Shown: positions 200 through 5,231, numbered from the stretch's first letter. The stretch is 5,231 nt of DNA from Nanopusillaceae archaeon (GCA_038833255.1 JAWBIX010000028.1:1-5231); one strand, 5' to 3'. The notes: generated from the letters alone by a model not told the origin. Numbers and translations: made by a program.

Positions 200-275
200 G
201 CCGCGGTGCCCGAGTGGCCTAAGGGGGAGGGCTGCAGACCCTCTTTAATCCGGGGTTCAAATCCCCGCCGCGGCT
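200..275 (+). tRNA. tRNA-Cys (anticodon GCA)
   Basis: Cloverleaf folded by hand. Acceptor GCCGCGG (200-206) pairs with CCGCGGC (268-274). T207 is U8. The D arm is CCC(G)/(A)GGG with GG in the loop. The anticodon stem is GAGGG (227-231)/CCCTC (239-243), the loop is CTGCAGA, and the anticodon GCA is at 234-236. The T arm is CGGGG-TTCAAAT-CCCCG (251-267). The discriminator T275 is U73, the classical Cys identity base. G+C is 52/76. CCA is not encoded. Confidence 0.85.
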
Positions 276-1476
276 ATTCAGATTTTAATATTTCTACAGG
301 ATCTATTTTTGATGCCAAATATGCAGGAATGAATCCAGAAATAATACAAACAAAAACAGGTATTAAAAAGGAAATTAAAAATAAATCCATCCCTAAGTAA
401 ACTTTAAAGTTGTATCCATAAATTGAAAAAGCATATTCAAAAATTTTAGATCCAAATACTCCTATTAGTATTCCAAAAATGCTAGCAAAAAAGCCAATAA
501 TTATAGATTCTAATAAAAACATCTTCAGTACATGAATATTTCTCATTCCCAATGCTTTTAAAATTCCAATTTCTTTTTTTCTTTCTATAACTGAAGAAAA
601 CATTGTATTTGCTACCCCAATTGCGGATACAAGTATAGAAACTAAAGATAATAATAAAGCAAATATAGAAACAGTTCCTATGTTTTTTGAGATAGTTTCA
701 TATAAAGTTTCTATGGTAAGGATAGAATAGTCTTTTCCAAATTCTTTATCTAAGAATTTGGATATTTCATTATAACCAAGTTTATAATCTTTTAATTTTA
801 TATAAATTTGTGAAAAACCCGAAAAGTTTGTATTCATATATCTTTTGTAGTATTCATATGGAATGAAAACACCGTAATCTATAATAAAATTTCCAGTACT
901 ATTTAATATTCCAATAACAACACATTTCTTTTCATCGACAAATAAGGTATCTCCAACATTTATTTTTGAAGAAAATAAGAAATCTTGTACAGCTTTGCCT
1001 ATTATCAAAACACATCTTTTATTATCTCTTAAATCAAAAAGTCTACCATAACTTAAAGAGAATCCAAAATATTCTATGTTTGAAATATAAGCAATGGGAA
1101 CAACATGTGCTAATACATTTGAAGATTCATATTTATATCTTAAAGTAACAGATGTTCTGCCTATTGGTAAAATATATTTAACATTATGCAAATTTTTTAA
1201 TTTATTTATTAAATTTTCAGTAAATGTATTTCTAAGATCTCTGATATTAAAGCCTAAAAAACCAAAATTAATAGATCTTCCAGCAGTTATAATTATTGCA
1301 TCACTTCCTAATTTTTCAAGTTGTACCCTTACTGTATATTCTAATCCCCTAGAAATTGAAATTAAAATAAAAATTAAAGATACTCCAATGGCAATACCAA
1401 TAGATGTTAAAAATGTTTGTAATCTTTTTCTAGTAATATTGTCAAAACTTATTTTTATTAAATCAAAAAACTTCAT
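274..1476 (-). CDS. ABC transporter permease, MacB/LolC/FtsX type (four TM helices with a large extracytoplasmic domain)
   Basis: 400-aa ORF. It has an N-terminal TM (LQTFLTSIGIAIGVSLIFILISI), then roughly 220 aa of non-hydrophobic sequence, then three C-terminal TMs. The C-terminal part carries the FtsX-domain pattern ERKKEIGILKALGMRNIHVLKMFLLESIIIG and the typical tail IPAYLASKIDPVEILKSE. The ATG at 1476-1474 lies 2 nt after the TAG (1481-1479) of the upstream gene. Its own TAG (276-274) overlaps the tRNA-Cys 3' end by 2 nt on the opposite strand. Confidence 0.9.
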   Translation of the reverse strand: MKFFDLIKISFDNITRKRLQTFLTSIGIAIGVSLIFILISISRGLEYTVRVQLEKLGSDAIIITAGRSINFGFLGFNIRDLRNTFTENLINKLKNLHNVKYILPIGRTSVTLRYKYESSNVLAHVVPIAYISNIEYFGFSLSYGRLFDLRDNKRCVLIIGKAVQDFLFSSKINVGDTLFVDEKKCVVIGILNSTGNFIIDYGVFIPYEYYKRYMNTNFSGFSQIYIKLKDYKLGYNEISKFLDKEFGKDYSILTIETLYETISKNIGTVSIFALLLSLVSILVSAIGVANTMFSSVIERKKEIGILKALGMRNIHVLKMFLLESIIIGFFASIFGILIGVFGSKIFEYAFSIYGYNFKVYLGMDLFLISFLIPVFVCIISGFIPAYLASKIDPVEILKSE

Positions 1477-1478
1477 GT

Positions 1479-2960
1479 CTAATCTCTTCCTATTCTTTTA
1501 AATATTTTCCAAGCAATTATTAAAATTATAAGACTAATAAAAATAATCAAAACTACCATGTAGATAAAATTTGAAGTTACAATAAGATTTCTAGTTCTTA
1601 TAGTTTGATTTGTAACTGTTCCTTTAGCAAATGAAAAATTAGAAATTAAATTAATGTTAGGTATTTCAATTTCATATTCTTTTTTTATTTCATTTCCGTA
1701 TGATGTTAAGTAATTAGCCATTATAATAATTTTTCCTTCATTTAGTTCTAATATATTAAGGTATATTGTATAACTATCTCCAACATCTAAACTACCAATA
1801 TAAAAAGAATTTGGGAAAATTATACAACTGGAGCAATTTACTTTTAATATTAAAGAATCTATTTTTGAATTTCCAAAATTTATAACATCTATTCCTACTA
1901 TATTGTCCTCGATTTCTGATATAATAAATTTCAATTCAGATTTTTCTAAAATTTTTACTATAATTGGATTATAAATTATGTTCTGTTTTCCTGAAGAATC
2001 TATATAAGAAATATTAATAGGGACTATCACTTCTCCACCAGAATTAGATAAAGCATAGACTTCTATTTCAATTCTTTTTTTCTCATATGGATTTAAATTA
2101 TTAATGTAAATGTAATTTTTCTTAGGTATTATCATTGACGGACTTATGAAAATAGTTATATCTTCTATTTGATCGTTTGTCGGATTGTATATTTCTAATA
2201 TTATTTTTCCATTGCTTCCAGCAGTTATAGTAGGGATATCATACTTTATATTAATAGTAGAAATTAAAGGATTTACAGGTAAATTTATTATTTTTGTTTC
2301 TAAATACGAATTTTCAAGTAAATCCTTGTAAGATAAAATTGCAGAAATTGTACAATATGATATATTTATTGGGACCTTTAATGATACACTAATTAAAAAC
2401 TCATCTAACAAATTTTCAATATATATTTCTGGAGATATTACAGGACATAATGATGAATTAAAATTTATTTTAAGATCTTTTGCAGGATCTCCATAATTCT
2501 TTATTTTTATATCTATTTTATTTATTTTTCCCCATTTAAAATCTGAATAGTTATATTCCAATATAATTTTTGGTGGATTTATAATGTATAGTGGATAAAG
2601 ATAAGAAAAAGAAAAATCTCTAGTATAGTTATAATATCTTAGATATCCTTCTAAATATAAATAGTACATACCCGAACTACAATTTTTTATAGATATTCTT
2701 AGAGGAAAACAATAAATTCCAGAAAAAGAAAAAAGATGAATATTATAAACTTCTGGTTCTATACAGCTATCACTGACTTTTATCCAGGCTCTAAGAAAAT
2801 CAACATGATTATTTTCTGAAAAACATATTGATAGAGAAATATTTGTATTTTGAGTAATTGTTTTTGGATATAATTGATGCACGCCTATATTCAAACTATT
2901 TACAGGTCTTATAAATACTATAAAAGATATCAAGATTAATAACAGTTTTAGTAATCTCAT
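1479..2960 (-). CDS. secreted, C-terminally membrane-anchored surface protein with about four tandem beta-sandwich-like (CARDB/COG1361 'S-layer domain'-like) repeats; function unknown
   Basis: 493-aa ORF. Signal-peptide-like N-terminus MRLLKLLLILISFIVFIRPVNS. Single C-terminal TM FIYMVVLIIFISLIILIIAW followed by the basic tail KIFKRIGRD. Ten N-x-S/T sequons and eight Cys. An alternating-hydrophobic strand pattern recurs about every 100 aa. The fold assignment comes from pattern recognition only. Confidence 0.85.
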   Translation of the reverse strand: MRLLKLLLILISFIVFIRPVNSLNIGVHQLYPKTITQNTNISLSICFSENNHVDFLRAWIKVSDSCIEPEVYNIHLFSFSGIYCFPLRISIKNCSSGMYYLYLEGYLRYYNYTRDFSFSYLYPLYIINPPKIILEYNYSDFKWGKINKIDIKIKNYGDPAKDLKINFNSSLCPVISPEIYIENLLDEFLISVSLKVPINISYCTISAILSYKDLLENSYLETKIINLPVNPLISTINIKYDIPTITAGSNGKIILEIYNPTNDQIEDITIFISPSMIIPKKNYIYINNLNPYEKKRIEIEVYALSNSGGEVIVPINISYIDSSGKQNIIYNPIIVKILEKSELKFIISEIEDNIVGIDVINFGNSKIDSLILKVNCSSCIIFPNSFYIGSLDVGDSYTIYLNILELNEGKIIIMANYLTSYGNEIKKEYEIEIPNINLISNFSFAKGTVTNQTIRTRNLIVTSNFIYMVVLIIFISLIILIIAWKIFKRIGRD

Positions 2961-2995
2961 TGATTTTATTATTTTATAGAAATTTTTTTAAAAAT

Positions 2996-3709
2996 TTACT
3001 TCTTTAGCATTTTTATAGCTTGATCTAAATTTACACCATCTCCAAGAATTTTTCCACCTCTAATTACAATTATTCTCTTGGCAGCTTCCGCTATTTTTAT
3101 ATCATGTGTAGCAATAATTATTGTTTTTTTTAAACCTTCATTAAGTTTTTTTAAGGTATCTATAACAATTTGAGCAGATTTTATATCTAAATTTCCTGTT
3201 GGCTCATCTGCTAATATTATTTCTGGATCATTTGCCAATGCTCTAGCTATAGCAACTCTTTGTTGTTGACCACTAGATAATTTATTTGGCCTATTATAAA
3301 TAAATTCGTCCATTTCTAATAATTTTAACAGTTCTTTTACTCTCTTTTCTCTATATTTTTTTGGTTTCCCAGATATAATTAATGGAAGTTCAACATTTTC
3401 AAAAACATTTTTATGTGGTAATAAATAAAATTGTTGAAATATAAATCCTATTTTTAAATTTCTTATTTCTGCTAATTCTTTATCAGATAAATTTTTTGTA
3501 TTTTTTCCAAAAACATAAACATTACCAGATGTTGGTTTATCTAAACAACCAATTAAATGTAAAAGTGTTGATTTTCCAGATCCAGAAGGACCCATAATAG
3601 CAATCATTTCTCCTTTTTCAATTTCTAAAGAAACATCATCTAATGCTTTTATTTCATAATTTCCTGTTTTATATATTTTAGTTACATTTTCTAATTTTAT
3701 TATTGACAT
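2996..3709 (-). CDS. ABC transporter ATP-binding protein, LolD/MacB-NBD (MJ0796-like, COG1136-type)
   Basis: I moved the start to the ATG at 3709-3707 (MSIIKLENVTKIYK...). As I recall this family, its members begin that way (MJ0796 starts MIKLKNVTKTYK). Motifs present: Walker A GPSGSGKST (3566-3592), Q-loop FQQ, signature LSSGQ (3266-3280), Walker B IILADEPTGNLD, H-loop ATHD. The 26 extra N-terminal codons in the ORF track (3710-3787) run through the tRNA gene. Confidence 0.95.
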   Translation of the reverse strand: MSIIKLENVTKIYKTGNYEIKALDDVSLEIEKGEMIAIMGPSGSGKSTLLHLIGCLDKPTSGNVYVFGKNTKNLSDKELAEIRNLKIGFIFQQFYLLPHKNVFENVELPLIISGKPKKYREKRVKELLKLLEMDEFIYNRPNKLSSGQQQRVAIARALANDPEIILADEPTGNLDIKSAQIVIDTLKKLNEGLKKTIIIATHDIKIAEAAKRIIVIRGGKILGDGVNLDQAIKMLKK

Positions 3710-3744: not shown

Positions 3745-3849
3745 TGCCGCCGGGGGGATTTGAACCCCCGACCTCCTGGTTTCTCACAAACCCATCGTTA
3801 TCTCAATACGGTTATGAGCCAGGCGCTCTGACCGCTGAGCTACGGCGGC
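3745..3849 (-). tRNA. intron-containing tRNA, anticodon CAT (elongator tRNA-Met type; tRNA-Ile2 with modified CAU not excluded)
   Basis: The reverse complement folds as GCCGCCG-TA-GCTC-AGCGGTCA-GAGC-G-CCTGG-CTCATA[32-nt intron]A-CCAGG-AGGTC-GGGGG-TTCAAAT-CCCCC-CGGCGGC-A. The anticodon CAT is at 3816-3814. The G1-C72 pair and the TGG/CCA inner anticodon stem argue against an archaeal initiator (A1-U72 and three G-C pairs). Exon G+C is 50/73. CCA is not encoded. Confidence 0.85.
3781..3812 (-). other. tRNA intron at the canonical 37/38 position (32 nt; exact junction can slide within A runs)
   Basis: Intron sequence: ACCGTATTGAGATAACGATGGGTTTGTGAGAA. Exon CUCA (positions 32-35, 3818-3815) pairs with intron UGAG (3786-3783) to give a 4-bp helix. 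That helix is flanked by two 3-nt bulges, U36-A37-A(i1) and A(i31)-A(i32)-A38. Both predicted cuts fall after the second bulge nucleotide, as in a bulge-helix-bulge motif. Confidence 0.7.
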
Positions 3850-3902: not shown

Positions 3903-4298
3903 ATGACAAAAAAAGAAAGATGGGGGATTGCATATATATATTCATCCAAAAATAATACAATAATTCATATTACTGATATAACTGGTGCAGAAACGATTGC
4001 TGTAGGTAGCGGTGGAATGGTTGTACATGCGGATAGATTGGAAGGAACTCCTACTGCGGCAATTCTTGCAGCAAAAATAGCAGCACAGAAAGCTTTAGAA
4101 AGAGGAATAACAGGTGTTCATGTTAAATTAAGAGCTCCTGGAGGACATAATGGTCCTTGGGTTCCAACAATTGCGGCACAATTTGCAATAAAAACTTTAA
4201 TTACTTCTGGATTGAAAATAGGTGTTGTTGAAGACGTAACACCAATTCCACATGATGGTTGTAGAAGAAAAGGAGGAAAAAGAGGAAGAAGATTATAA
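3903..4298 (+). CDS. rps11: 30S ribosomal protein uS11 (archaeal S11 / eukaryotic S14 family)
   Basis: 131 aa with the hallmark blocks [33 protein letters not shown], and the C-terminus [23 protein letters not shown]. No Shine-Dalgarno lies upstream. The stop TAA is at 4296-4298. Confidence 0.97.
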
Positions 4299-5231
4299 TC
4301 TTTTTTTAATAAATTCTATAAATTTTTCTATATCTTCTGTTTTTATAATTGCTCCAGCAGCTTTCTTATGACCTCCCCCAGAAATTCCATAATTTTCAGT
4401 AAATTCTTTTGCTATTAAACCTAGATCTATATCATCTCTAGTAGTTCTTAAAGAAACTTTCGTTGTTTTTCTTTTAAAAATAAGTTTTTTTGATGGAGTT
4501 ATTCCAATAACTATTTTATTATCATAAAAAGGAGATAAAAAAGTTGATAGTAAGGAAGGTTTTTCAGCTTCAATTAGGATAAGATTCTCATCTTTACAAA
4601 TAATTTTAAAATTTAGAATTCTTTTAAAGAACATATTTAGCTTTTTATAAATCCTTTTTTCTTTTATTTTATTTAATATAAAAATAATATCTTTATTAAA
4701 ATCTAAATCTAAAAAATCTTCAGGATCTAAAGAGGAAAGCAAAGTAAAAAAATAATAGAAAGAAATTATTGGTAATTTTTCCTTTAAAAGATTTTTATAT
4801 TCTCTTTTAAAATCATTTAGAACAACATTATCATAACTAACATCTCCTATCATCCCCATAAATGCTATTATTGAATACTTTGAAAAATCTTTAAATAAAC
4901 GCTTTCCAATTCTATATACAATGCATGTTGTGCATAAATCCTCATTAAATAGAGCCTTATAATCAAAGAAAATTATATTTTCTGATAAATTTTCAGGAAC
5001 ATACCTATGATGATGATCTATATAAATTATTTTTTTATCTTTAGATATACTTTTTAAAATATTTTCTTTTAATGCGAGATCTAATAATATTACTTCTTTT
5101 TCATTTATATTACTAAAAATATCTTTTTTGATTTTATTTCTTTTTTTAAAAATAATTTTATGTTTTATTTCTAATTTAGATAAAATTATACTCATTAATT
5201 TTGCAGAAAATATTCCATCTAAATCATCGTC
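4293..5231 (-). CDS. DHH/DHHA1-family phosphoesterase (RecJ/NrnA-like), 5'-truncated by the window edge
   Basis: Motif III is IDHHH (DHHH codons at 5018-5007). Motif IV-like MGMIGDVS is present. The DHHA1 motif is [10 protein letters not shown] (GGGH at 4379-4368). The frame stays open upstream of the ORF-track Met (5195) to the window edge and reads [12 protein letters not shown], a DHH motif I (D-x-D-G-x-x-S-A). The real start is therefore beyond 5231. The stop TAA is at 4295-4293. Confidence 0.8.
4301..4307 (+). terminator. oligo-T (T7) candidate archaeal terminator for uS11
   Basis: A run of seven T starts 3 nt after the uS11 stop. Oligo-T tracts are the known archaeal RNA polymerase termination signal. 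The run lies inside the last codons (KKRL) of the convergent DHH gene. Confidence 0.4.

What the first reader, a model, noticed from the sequence alone, without database searches (positions are those of the whole stretch)
274..3709. MacB/FtsX-type ABC module with a dedicated surface protein inserted between ATPase and permease
Seen in the sequence: three co-directional genes run ATPase (3709-2996), a 35-nt gap, a 493-aa signal-peptide/C-terminal-anchor protein (2960-1479), then TAG, 2 nt, and the ATG of a four-TM permease with a roughly 220-aa extracytoplasmic domain (1476-274). A weak SD-like GGAAGAG (1490-1484) lies 7 nt before the permease ATG. Established knowledge: the MacB/LolCDE/FtsEX fold (type VII ABC) works by mechanotransmission. 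ATP hydrolysis drives the outside-facing domain, which acts on an extracytoplasmic partner or cargo (MacA-TolC, LolA/lipoproteins, EnvC). It does not pump substrate through the membrane. Those bacterial partners depend on an outer membrane or peptidoglycan, which an archaeon lacks. Inference: the tightly coupled multi-domain surface protein is the partner or cargo. This would be an ATP-powered surface device, for example conformational control or release of an adhesin or envelope protein, or expulsion of membrane-active compounds. If the organism is an ectosymbiont, host contact is another possibility. From memory, COG1361-type 'S-layer domain' proteins occur next to COG0577/COG1136 genes in other archaea. 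So the linkage may be conserved, but I know of no experimentally established function.
Basis: partly seen in the sequence, partly recalled or inferred. Interest (0 to 1): 0.7.

Follow-up and report, generated by a model that had tools for sequence, protein, structure and literature searches.

The report
ABC exporter with tethered Ig-repeat partner
A tiny symbiotic archaeon carries a three-gene unit in which a MacB-type ABC transporter is tightly coupled to a membrane-tethered chain of four Ig-like domains; this uncharacterised protein family is also paired with two other exporter classes in other microbes, so it probably acts as an exporter accessory or adaptor.

Summary
The window is from a Nanopusillaceae (Nanoarchaeota) genome. 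It carries an MJ0796/LolD-like ABC ATPase (3709-2996), a 493-aa protein X (2960-1479) and a MacB_PCD+FtsX permease (1476-274).

X has a signal peptide, four predicted beta-sandwich domains, a roughly 27-aa flexible linker and a C-terminal TM helix. It has no Pfam hit itself. Its relatives hit CARDB/NEW3/DUF11, and its family profile matches proteins that NCBI names "COG1361 S-layer family protein".

The linkage is strongly conserved:
- 10 of 11 distinct X homologues lie beside a MacB-type permease.
- 16 of 19 assessable archaeal permease loci carry X.
- Six Clostridia/Lachnospiraceae loci also carry it, so the module is not archaeon-specific.

In haloarchaea the same protein family sits immediately upstream of RND/MMPL transporters, often with TetR regulators, and once beside an ABC-2 transporter. 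Pairing with several exporter classes is the pattern of bacterial adaptor proteins (MacA/AcrA, MmpS5).

My best reading is that X is a dedicated accessory or adaptor subunit, not cargo and not a symbiosis-specific adhesin. This rests on synteny and analogy; no interface or function was shown. I found no paper describing the module. I class it as a new variant of a known kind, of moderate to high interest.

The parts
2996..3709 (-). ABC ATPase (237 aa) of the LolD/MacB/MJ0796 type. Motifs read from the sequence: Walker A GPSGSGKST, signature LSSGQQQR, Walker B ILADEPT, H-loop ATHD.
   Evidence: PF00005, 124 bits. LolD, MacB and FtsE models at E 1e-65 to 1e-74, all below their equivalog cut-offs; best solved structure MJ0796, E 6e-71. 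Motifs read.
2961..2995 (-). 35-nt A+T-rich spacer between the ATPase stop and the X start.
   Evidence: In close relatives the spacer is 30-50 nt; in many other lineages the two genes overlap by 4 nt.
1479..2960 (-). Protein X (493 aa): an envelope protein of beta-sandwich repeats anchored by its C-terminal tail (COG1361/CARDB-like family).
   Evidence: dN/dS against the 93%-identical genome is 0.17.
2895..2960 (-). X signal peptide (aa 1-22, MRLLKLLLILISFIVFIRPVNS).
   Evidence: Hydropathy; helix 2-16 in the model.
1665..2894 (-). X ectodomain: four tandem beta-sandwich domains (about aa 23-126, 131-228, 236-338, 343-432). Each of the last three ends in a motif related to YxDxxGN. Seven cysteines are conserved among the closest relatives.
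   Evidence: AlphaFold2 model, mean pLDDT 83.5. Foldseek against PDB returns only multi-Ig/MG/ASH chains. Invariant columns.
1569..1664 (-). X linker next to the membrane (about aa 433-464), predicted disordered and the least conserved part.
   Evidence: pLDDT 34-35 for aa 441-460, with the sub-50 segment at aa 438-464. Mean pairwise identity 19% against 31-37% for the domains.
1488..1568 (-). X C-terminal TM helix (aa 465-491), followed by a basic tail predicted to be cytoplasmic.
1474..1490 (-). X/permease junction: GGAAGAG, 7 nt (the last 2 nt of X's final sense codon, the TAG stop, then 2 nt), then ATG. This looks like a translational-coupling junction.
   Evidence: In archaeal relatives the junction ranges from -14 to +9 nt in most loci. 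SD-like GGAGG is seen in relatives with higher G+C.
274..1476 (-). MacB-type (type VII) ABC permease, 400 aa, four TM segments.
   Evidence: MacB_PCD plus FtsX; best solved structures are MacB (2.4e-33), Spr0695 (5xu1) and YtrF; hydropathy.
688..1338 (-). Extracytoplasmic domain of the permease (about aa 47-263) between TM1 and TM2.
   Evidence: PF12704 match covers aa 21-230; hydropathy.
3745..3849 (-). tRNA (anticodon CAT) with an intron of roughly 30 nt, 35 nt upstream of the ATPase start on the same strand. It marks the upstream edge of the unit.
   Evidence: Rfam tRNA, 65.9 bits; sequence; missed by ARAGORN.
200..275 (+). tRNA-Cys(GCA), convergent with the permease and overlapping its stop codon by 2 nt. 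It marks the downstream edge of the unit.

Best explanation
The three genes encode one envelope machine: a MacB-type (type VII) ABC transporter, probably two ATPase and two permease subunits, with X as a dedicated accessory or adaptor subunit.

Proposed assembly (inferred). X is exported by Sec. It stays tethered by its C-terminal TM helix, with the basic tail in the cytoplasm. It is made in step with the permease through the touching stop/start. It probably docks on the permease through its TM helix, its flexible linker and its membrane-proximal domain. Its four Ig-like domains project across the space between the membrane and the S-layer; my own rough estimate, assuming about 4 nm per domain, is 15 nm or more.

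Proposed function (inferred). ATP-driven movements of the permease's outside domain expel or extract amphipathic or hydrophobic molecules from the outer leaflet or the space beneath the S-layer. X organises, stabilises or extends the exit side. This is the job done by MacA for MacB, AcrA for AcrB and MmpS5 for MmpL5, but with an unrelated fold.

What is shown: gene anatomy, folds, family membership, conserved synteny, purifying selection, and pairing of the X family with three exporter classes.

What is inferred: the physical complex, the stoichiometry, the direction of transport and the substrate.
For: 1. A real type VII module with intact ATPase motifs.

2. X is an all-beta, membrane-tethered, non-enzymatic ectodomain chain.

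3. Synteny starting from X. Ten of 11 distinct homologues, 18-58% identical, lie next to a MacB_PCD+FtsX permease. The usual order is A-X-P, with 4-14-nt overlaps or gaps of 0-3 nt.

4. Synteny starting from the permease. Sixteen of 19 assessable archaeal loci carry X: Nanopusillus, Nanoarchaeota YN1 (complete genome), Woese-, Iain-, Aenigmat- and Micrarchaeota, Thaumarchaeota and Methanosarcinales. Six Clostridia loci also carry it. Lol-like A-P-P loci of Gallionellaceae do not.

5. Proteins matching the X-family profile at about 120 bits, with the same tail-anchored architecture (an N-terminal signal is seen only in the two full-length annotated examples), sit immediately upstream of RND/MMPL transporters at 9 distinct loci on haloarchaeal plasmids, several with divergent TetR regulators, and once beside an ABC-2 transporter. 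Pairing of one accessory family with several exporter classes is the signature of adaptor proteins.

6. Precedent. MmpS5 has a single TM helix, a 20-aa loop and an all-beta periplasmic domain. Its gene overlaps mmpL5 (ATGA), and the protein clamps the transporter oligomer (PMC12346298).

7. X is under purifying selection (dN/dS 0.17), similar to the ATPase (0.15) and the permease (0.22).

8. The unit is retained in genomes that encode only about five ABC subunit genes (PMC4935971).
Against: - No interaction was tested.
- Chains of Ig-like domains are also typical of adhesins and S-layer proteins, and closed beta-sandwiches do not obviously form a conduit.
- No part of X is markedly more conserved than the rest, as might be expected for a docking base.
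- X evolves faster than the permease and the ATPase: 28-31% identity against 35-39% and 56-64%.
- One family member (P0022, L007) is not linked to any exporter.
- The window protein itself has no significant Pfam or NCBIfam hit.
- The substrate is unknown.
- The haloarchaeal survey covers plasmids only.
Confidence: 0.5

Rival explanations
1. Mechanotransduction without transport. As FtsEX does with EnvC, PcsB or RipC, the ABC module uses ATP only to switch the conformation of X. X would be the effector: a regulated adhesin, an S-layer tether or an envelope-remodelling factor.
For: - Type VII systems include pure signal transmitters (established knowledge; PMC7668044 and PMC11627006, listed).
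- X is a long surface chain of the CARDB 'cell adhesion related' type.
- Tight operon coupling.
Against: - The permease carries a full MacB_PCD (porter plus Sabre type) domain and resembles MacB far more than FtsX: 2.4e-33 against no FtsX structure listed, and NCBIfam FtsX models score only 27-38 bits.
- The same X family is coupled to RND/MMPL and ABC-2 exporters, often under TetR control. These are transporters, not signal transmitters.
Confidence: 0.2
2. X is the cargo. The MacB-type extractor would pull X's C-terminal anchor out of the membrane, as LolCDE extracts lipoprotein acyl chains, to release X or hand it to the S-layer or the cell surface.
For: - LolCDE and YbbAP extract hydrophobic anchors or compounds from the outer leaflet (PMC8333309 and PMC12646458, listed).
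- X has a single hydrophobic anchor and is co-encoded with the transporter.
- A TM segment plus a basic tail resembles the tripartite sorting signals; one relative gives a weak Gram_pos_anchor hit.
Against: - A full TM helix with a charged cytoplasmic tail (KIFKRIGRD) would have to cross the bilayer.
- No conserved cleavage or sorting motif precedes the TM segment.
- Stoichiometric translational coupling suits a subunit better than a substrate that is turned over.
- The same family pairs with RND/MMPL and ABC-2 transporters, which would all have to handle the same kind of protein cargo.
Confidence: 0.1
3. Co-location without a shared mechanism. X would be an ordinary S-layer-associated or adhesion protein that merely shares a transcription unit with a stand-alone detoxifying ABC exporter.
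For: - Compact genomes pack unrelated genes tightly. In this window, tRNAs and neighbouring genes overlap.
- One family member (L007) stands alone.
Against: - The adjacency survives across phylum-level distances and in Bacteria, at 18-31% identity for X, while all flanking genes differ.
- X lies between the ATPase and permease genes rather than at an operon end.
- The gene is repeatedly placed upstream of other exporter classes.
Confidence: 0.08
4. A host-interface device specific to Nanoarchaeota. The extractor and its long Ig stalk would acquire lipids or other hydrophobic molecules from the host membrane, because these symbionts cannot make their own lipids.
For: - Nanoarchaeota depend on the host for lipids and have very few transporters (PMC4935971).
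- The module is present in all Nanopusillus-type loci retrieved.
- Type VII systems handle lipidic substrates (papers listed).
Against: - The same module occurs in lineages not known to share this ectosymbiotic lifestyle (Thaumarchaeota and Methanosarcinales MAGs) and in Clostridia.
- Known type VII systems export or extract rather than import (established knowledge).
Confidence: 0.05

Closest known systems
MacAB(-TolC), and the Gram-positive MacB-type pumps with adaptors (YknXYZ; Spr0693-0694-0695, PDB 5xu1)
   Same: The permease has four TM segments plus a MacB-like periplasmic core domain, and the ATPase is of the LolD/MacB clade. MacB structures are the best matches. A co-encoded, membrane-anchored extracytoplasmic partner is present.
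   Different: The partner is not a membrane-fusion protein. It has no alpha-hairpin, lipoyl or beta-barrel domains and no HlyD-type hit. It is anchored at its C-terminus, and its gene lies between the ATPase and permease genes. The ATPase and permease are separate polypeptides. There is no outer membrane duct.
MmpS-MmpL (for example MmpS5-MmpL5 of mycobacteria)
   Same: The accessory protein has one TM helix, a flexible loop and an all-beta outside domain. It is encoded immediately upstream of the transporter and translationally coupled to it (PMC12346298). Haloarchaeal relatives of X sit in exactly this position before MMPL/RND genes.
   Different: MmpS has an N-terminal anchor and a single beta domain. 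X has a cleavable signal peptide, four or more domains and a C-terminal anchor. No sequence relationship was detected. In the window the transporter is an ABC type, not RND.
FtsEX-EnvC/PcsB, LolCDE-LolA and YbbAP-TesA (other type VII ABC systems with outside partners)
   Same: They share the transporter superfamily and the logic of an ATP-driven outside domain acting on an extracytoplasmic partner (papers listed).
   Different: Those partners are coiled-coil activators, a lipoprotein chaperone or a hydrolase, none of them an Ig-repeat chain. NCBIfam equivalog cut-offs for FtsX, LolC/E, MacB and YbbP are all missed by wide margins.
COG1361 'S-layer family protein' / CARDB-NEW3-DUF11 repeat surface proteins of archaea
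   Same: Same family at profile level and the same tail-anchored repeat architecture; PGAP uses this product name for the haloarchaeal relatives.
   Different: The name implies an S-layer role that I did not find documented. The window protein is too divergent for any Pfam or NCBIfam model. Its consistent coupling to exporters is not reflected in the annotation.

Membership tests
Type VII ABC transporter (MacB/FtsX superfamily) | Permease with four TM helices and a large extracytoplasmic domain between TM1 and TM2 | tested here: met
   Hydropathy shows segments at about 19-46, 264-297, 314-347 and 357-391, leaving about 217 aa outside.
Type VII ABC transporter (MacB/FtsX superfamily) | FtsX C-terminal domain and MacB periplasmic core domain above the Pfam gathering scores | tested here: met
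   PF02687 scores 90.4 bits (cut-off 25.5); PF12704 scores 86.6 bits (cut-off 27).
Type VII ABC transporter (MacB/FtsX superfamily) | Cognate ATPase of the LolD/MacB/FtsE clade with intact catalytic motifs | tested here: met
   LolD, MacB and FtsE models at E 1e-65 to 1e-74; MJ0796 at 6e-71; Walker A, signature, Walker B and H-loop read.
Type VII ABC transporter (MacB/FtsX superfamily) | Mechanotransmission: ATP-driven movement of the outside domain, with no substrate path through the membrane | not testable with these tools
   This needs structures in different nucleotide states or biochemistry.
Characterised subfamilies MacB, LolC/LolE, FtsX, YbbP (orthology) | Score at or above the NCBIfam equivalog cut-off | tested here: not met
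   MacB 114.9 against 966; LolCE 60.2 against 362; FtsX models 27-38 against 225-255; YbbP 16.6 against 999. The permease is not an orthologue of any characterised member.
COG1361 / CARDB-repeat envelope proteins | Tandem CARDB/NEW3/DUF11-type beta-sandwich domains | tested here: inconclusive
   The window protein has no Pfam hit at E<0.1. However, 9 of 15 aligned relatives hit CARDB, the model shows four beta-sandwiches, and the family profile matches PGAP-named COG1361 proteins at about 120 bits.
COG1361 / CARDB-repeat envelope proteins | Signal peptide plus a C-terminal TM anchor with a basic tail | tested here: met
   The C-terminal TM anchor with a basic tail is present in relatives and in haloarchaeal members; an N-terminal signal is seen only in the two full-length annotated haloarchaeal examples.
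COG1361 / CARDB-repeat envelope proteins | Being a component of the S-layer | not testable with these tools
   This is an annotation name only. The papers found give no direct evidence.
Periplasmic adaptor / membrane-fusion proteins (HlyD/MacA/AcrA family) | Alpha-helical hairpin, lipoyl, beta-barrel and membrane-proximal domains; HlyD-type Pfam signature | tested here: not met
   X is all-beta and Ig-like. There are no helices outside the signal peptide and the TM segment, no such Pfam or NCBIfam hits, and fold matches are Ig/MG chains only. X can be a functional analogue but not a member.
MmpS adaptor family | N-terminal TM helix followed by one beta domain; MmpS Pfam signature | tested here: not met
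   The anchor is at the opposite end, there are four domains, and there is no MmpS hit. The resemblance is in how it may work and in gene position only.
   No such match in Pfam, NCBIfam, PDB sequence or PDB fold searches.

The most novel reading that the evidence does not exclude
COG1361-type tail-anchored Ig-repeat proteins would be the general exporter adaptor of cells with one membrane and a proteinaceous or thick wall (archaea with S-layers and some Firmicutes). They would be a fold-unrelated counterpart of bacterial membrane-fusion proteins. They would plug into MacB-type ABC, RND/MMPL and ABC-2 transporters to build efflux or extraction machines that reach across the space beneath the S-layer. 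The number of domains (3 to about 10) would be tuned to envelope thickness.
Probability: 0.3. Interest if true: 0.8.

Novelty: new variant of a known kind. Interest (0 to 1): 0.6.

Why it matters
How archaea move toxic or lipidic molecules past the membrane and through the S-layer is essentially unstudied. The main MacB-family review I checked does not mention archaea at all.

This work turns a vaguely named protein family into a concrete hypothesis that can be tested: a conserved, translationally coupled partner found next to three exporter classes.

The hypothesis can be tested in Haloferax volcanii, which is genetically tractable, using the COG1361-MMPL pair HVO_RS03915/HVO_RS03920 on pHV4.

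It also accounts for two of the very few transporter genes that Nanoarchaeota keep in their reduced genomes.

If X is an adaptor, it would be a case of convergent evolution with the bacterial MFP and MmpS adaptors.

Tried and rejected
- **Word-indexed protein search.** It found only 2 relatives with X alone and 4 with the alignment A1. The exhaustive HMMER search was needed.
- **The search for related loci.** It worked only with four close permeases (A4), so the genome survey is centred on the permease and limited to 80 loci.
- **afdb50 fold library.** Unavailable.
- **Fused X-linker-permease paired alignment (A5).** No interface test was possible, and the tool would not have returned contacts anyway.
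- **Looking for a conserved docking base and a variable tip in X.** Domain identities are uniform, so this was uninformative.
- **Literature searches.** I searched on COG1361, CARDB+MacB+archaea, FtsX+S-layer, archaeal dark matter, the arCOG update, MJ0797, type VII+archaea and RND+archaea+adaptor. None described this module. Two papers only repeat the 'S-layer domain' label.
- **Sigma-70 promoter scan.** Not run, because it does not apply to an archaeon.
- **N-glycosylation sequons.** X has 10 N-X-S/T sequons. My own arithmetic from its composition expects about 6, so I do not count this as evidence.

Full report
**1. Observation**

- On the minus strand the ATPase runs 3709-2996 (237 aa).
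- A 35-nt spacer follows.
- X runs 2960-1479 (493 aa) and ends in TAG.
- Two bases later the permease starts at 1476 and ends at 274 (400 aa).

The mechanical ORF list extends the ATPase to a GTG at 3787. That extension overlaps a tRNA and is an artefact. Rfam finds an intron-containing tRNA (anticodon CAT) at 3849-3745, which ARAGORN missed. A convergent tRNA-Cys (200-275) overlaps the permease stop by 2 nt, so two tRNA genes bracket the three-gene unit.

Hydropathy confirms three things:
- an N-terminal signal and one C-terminal TM segment in X;
- four TM segments in the permease;
- about 217 aa of the permease outside the membrane between TM1 and TM2.

**2. Source**

The window has about 24% G+C. 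It is collinear with contig JAWBCI010000006 of a Nanopusillaceae archaeon MAG at 93.2% nucleotide identity. Its neighbours are archaeal ribosomal protein S11 and a DHH/DHHA1 RecJ-like gene.

**3. The ABC parts**

- The permease scores well above Pfam thresholds for FtsX and MacB_PCD.
- Its best solved relatives are MacB (E 2.4e-33), the pneumococcal Spr0695 permease and B. subtilis YtrF.
- It falls far below every NCBIfam equivalog cut-off (MacB, LolC/E, FtsX, YbbP). It is therefore a type VII permease of an uncharacterised subfamily.
- The ATPase is closest to M. jannaschii MJ0796 (E 6e-71) and has intact Walker A, signature, Walker B and H-loop motifs, read directly from the sequence.

**4. 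Protein X**

X itself has no Pfam or NCBIfam hit. An exhaustive HMMER search of 1.84 billion representative proteins found 37 relatives at E≤1e-3. Most are 370-540 aa with the same layout; some are multi-repeat proteins of 650-1130 aa. Nine of 15 aligned members hit CARDB, and others hit NEW3 or DUF11.

An AlphaFold2 model built on that alignment has mean pLDDT 83.5. It shows:
- four beta-sandwich domains (about aa 23-126, 131-228, 236-338 and 343-432);
- a disordered stretch at aa 438-464;
- a TM helix at aa 465-491.

Foldseek against the PDB returns only multi-Ig, macroglobulin and ASH chains and an S-layer protein. It returns no enzyme and no solute-binding fold. Profile searches of PDB sequences find nothing significant. 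Seven cysteines are invariant among the closest relatives, which is consistent with an extracellular, disulfide-stabilised protein (inference).

**5. Is the linkage conserved? Starting from X**

I looked up the contigs of 11 distinct X homologues.
- The order A-X-P is seen in L001, L004, L005, L008 (X of 1128 aa), L011 (A-X-P-P), L012/13 (X of 796 aa) and L014/15.
- X-P is seen in L002 and L003, where the contig ends within or just upstream of the ATPase gene.
- L009/10 keeps X-P but has the ATPase inverted.
- In L006 (Altiarchaeales-like) the unit is broken up by methyltransferase and Bro-N genes.
- Only L007 is unlinked.

That makes 10 of 11 linked, at 18-58% identity for X and with entirely different flanking genes.

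**6. Is the linkage conserved? Starting from the permease**

A scan of one genome per GTDB species returned the 80 best loci. I annotated them with profiles of X and the permease and a phmmer search with the window's ATPase.
- Of 22 archaeal loci, 3 are cut at the contig edge.
- Sixteen of the remaining 19 carry X next to the permease. They come from four Nanopusillus genomes, the complete genome of Nanoarchaeota archaeon YN1, Woese-, Iain-, Aenigmat- and Micrarchaeota, another Nanoarchaeota MAG, a Thaumarchaeota MAG and a Methanosarcinales MAG (X-P-P-A).
- A Pacearchaeota locus has an X-like gene nearby on the other strand.
- The X-to-permease junction is between -14 and +9 nt in most archaeal loci.
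- Six of the 58 bacterial loci, all Clostridia/Lachnospiraceae, have A-X-P with X of 586-906 aa. The Pfam scan of one of them (L062) confirmed CARDB in X and MacB_PCD+FtsX in the permease.
- The many Gallionellaceae loci are Lol-like A-P-P without X.

The module is therefore old and widespread, and it is not confined to archaea or to symbionts.

**7. An unexpected extension**

A tblastn search of annotated plasmids with two X-family members hit only haloarchaea. The hits are genes that PGAP names 'COG1361 S-layer family protein', 'NEW3 domain-containing protein' or 'hypothetical protein'.
- At nine distinct loci the gene lies immediately upstream of an MMPL or RND family transporter on the same strand, touching or overlapping it.
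- These loci are in Hfx. volcanii pHV4, Har. marismortui (two loci), Har. sinaiiensis (two loci), Haloplanus, Haloarcula GH36, Halobaculum lipolyticum and Halorubrum PV6.
- Several have a divergent TetR/AcrR regulator.
- In Halorientalis marina the gene follows an ABC ATPase and an ABC-2 permease.

The four haloarchaeal proteins I tested match the X-family profile at 119-123 bits. All four end in a TM helix plus a basic tail, and the two full-length annotated ones also show an N-terminal signal.

So one accessory family is coupled to three mechanistically different exporter classes.

**8. Constraint and rates**

Between the window and its 93%-identical relative, dN/dS is 0.17 for X, 0.15 for the ATPase and 0.22 for the permease. 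X is therefore a constrained, functional gene.

Over longer distances X diverges fastest. Against other Nanopusillus-type loci, identity is 28-31% for X, 35-39% for the permease and 56-64% for the ATPase. This is as expected for an exposed protein.

Divergence is even across the four domains. The linker is the least conserved part.

**9. Mechanism (inference)**

Known type VII systems act through an outside partner: MacA, LolA, EnvC or PcsB, and TesA (papers listed). Bacterial adaptors are defined in practice by two features:
- they are co-encoded with several transporter classes;
- they are membrane-anchored and extend away from the membrane.

The X family shows both. The nearest precedent in design is MmpS5. 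It has one TM helix, a 20-aa loop and an all-beta domain. Its gene overlaps mmpL5 through ATGA, and the protein clamps the transporter oligomer (PMC12346298).

I therefore propose that X is a stoichiometric accessory or adaptor subunit. It would organise or extend the exit side of an extractor or efflux pump across the space between the membrane and the S-layer. TetR control of the RND-linked relatives fits efflux of toxic or lipidic compounds. The complex, its stoichiometry and its substrate are not shown.

**10. Rivals**

- **Pure mechanotransduction to an adhesin-like effector.** This is possible, but it fits poorly with the RND and ABC-2 pairing and with the MacB-like rather than FtsX-like permease.
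- **X as cargo.** This is unlikely, because X has a full TM helix with a charged tail and no conserved sorting motif.
- **Co-location only.** This is contradicted by conservation at phylum level and by X's position between the two ABC genes.
- **A Nanoarchaeota-specific host-lipid device.** This is contradicted by the presence of the module in lineages with no known symbiotic lifestyle (Thaumarchaeota and Methanosarcinales MAGs, Clostridia). Even so, retention of the unit in genomes with only about five ABC subunit genes is notable (PMC4935971).

**11. Novelty**

Annotation pipelines recognise the family by name. However, eight literature searches found no description of this module or of the exporter coupling. 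The main MacB-family review I checked contains no mention of archaea.

Within the limits of the searchable library, this is an uncharacterised variant of the type VII 'transporter plus partner' theme, with a new class of partner.

**12. Limits**

- No interface prediction was possible.
- The haloarchaeal evidence is from plasmids only.
- The permease survey is capped at 80 loci and biased towards sequences similar to the query.
- The neighbourhood of MJ0796 could not be checked.

Noticed in passing
window 3745-3849 (-): A tRNA with anticodon CAT carries an intron of roughly 30 nt after the anticodon loop. Rfam finds it at 65.9 bits, but ARAGORN missed it. The GTG-started 263-aa version of the ATPase ORF (to 3787) overlaps it and is an artefact. 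This tRNA lies next to the ATPase only in the window and its 93%-identical relative L001, not in other Nanopusillus-type loci.
   Followed up: partly
window 200-275 (+) and 274-276: tRNA-Cys(GCA) is convergent with the permease gene and overlaps its stop codon by 2 nt. The equivalent tRNA was not reported in L001 by the Rfam gathering-threshold run, although the region aligns at 93% identity.
   Followed up: partly
window 4293-5231: The S11 gene (3903-4298, +) and a DHH/DHHA1 RecJ-like gene (5195-4293, -) converge and overlap by 6 nt. The RecJ-like gene is called at 331 aa in L001 against 300 aa here, so its true start probably lies beyond the end of the window.
   Followed up: no
L062 4724-5011; L069 4652-4936: In two of the Lachnospiraceae/Clostridia A-X-P loci, the roughly 300-nt gap between X and the permease holds an extra ORF of about 95 aa. 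It also ends in a TM helix plus a basic tail, so it may be a second small tail-anchored component. No such ORF was found in L064, L065 or L094.
   Followed up: partly
L006 3543-12983: In an Altiarchaeales-like contig the ATPase, X and two permease genes are separated by two N6/N4 DNA methyltransferase genes, an unknown gene and a Bro-N domain gene. This looks like a mobile-element insertion into the operon.
   Followed up: no
L009 3972-7540 (and L010): Here the ATPase gene is inverted relative to X and the permease, and a 92-aa gene with a weak MazE-antitoxin-like hit overlaps the start of X.
   Followed up: no
L104 880-4658 (Halorientalis marina plasmid): An X-family protein (655 aa, NEW3/CARDB hits) follows an ABC ATPase and an ABC-2-type permease. 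This is a third exporter class associated with the family.
   Followed up: partly
window 1479-2960 (X aa 46, 66, 84, 94, 172, 203, 379): Seven cysteines are invariant among the seven closest X relatives, which are only 26-58% identical to the window protein. They may form disulfides in the first, second and fourth domains.
   Followed up: no
L011, L025, L026, L043, L045, L078: Several DPANN and Methanosarcinales loci carry two tandem MacB-type permease genes with a single X (A-X-P-P, A-P-X-P or X-P-P-A). This suggests heterodimeric permeases, as in LolC/LolE.
   Followed up: no
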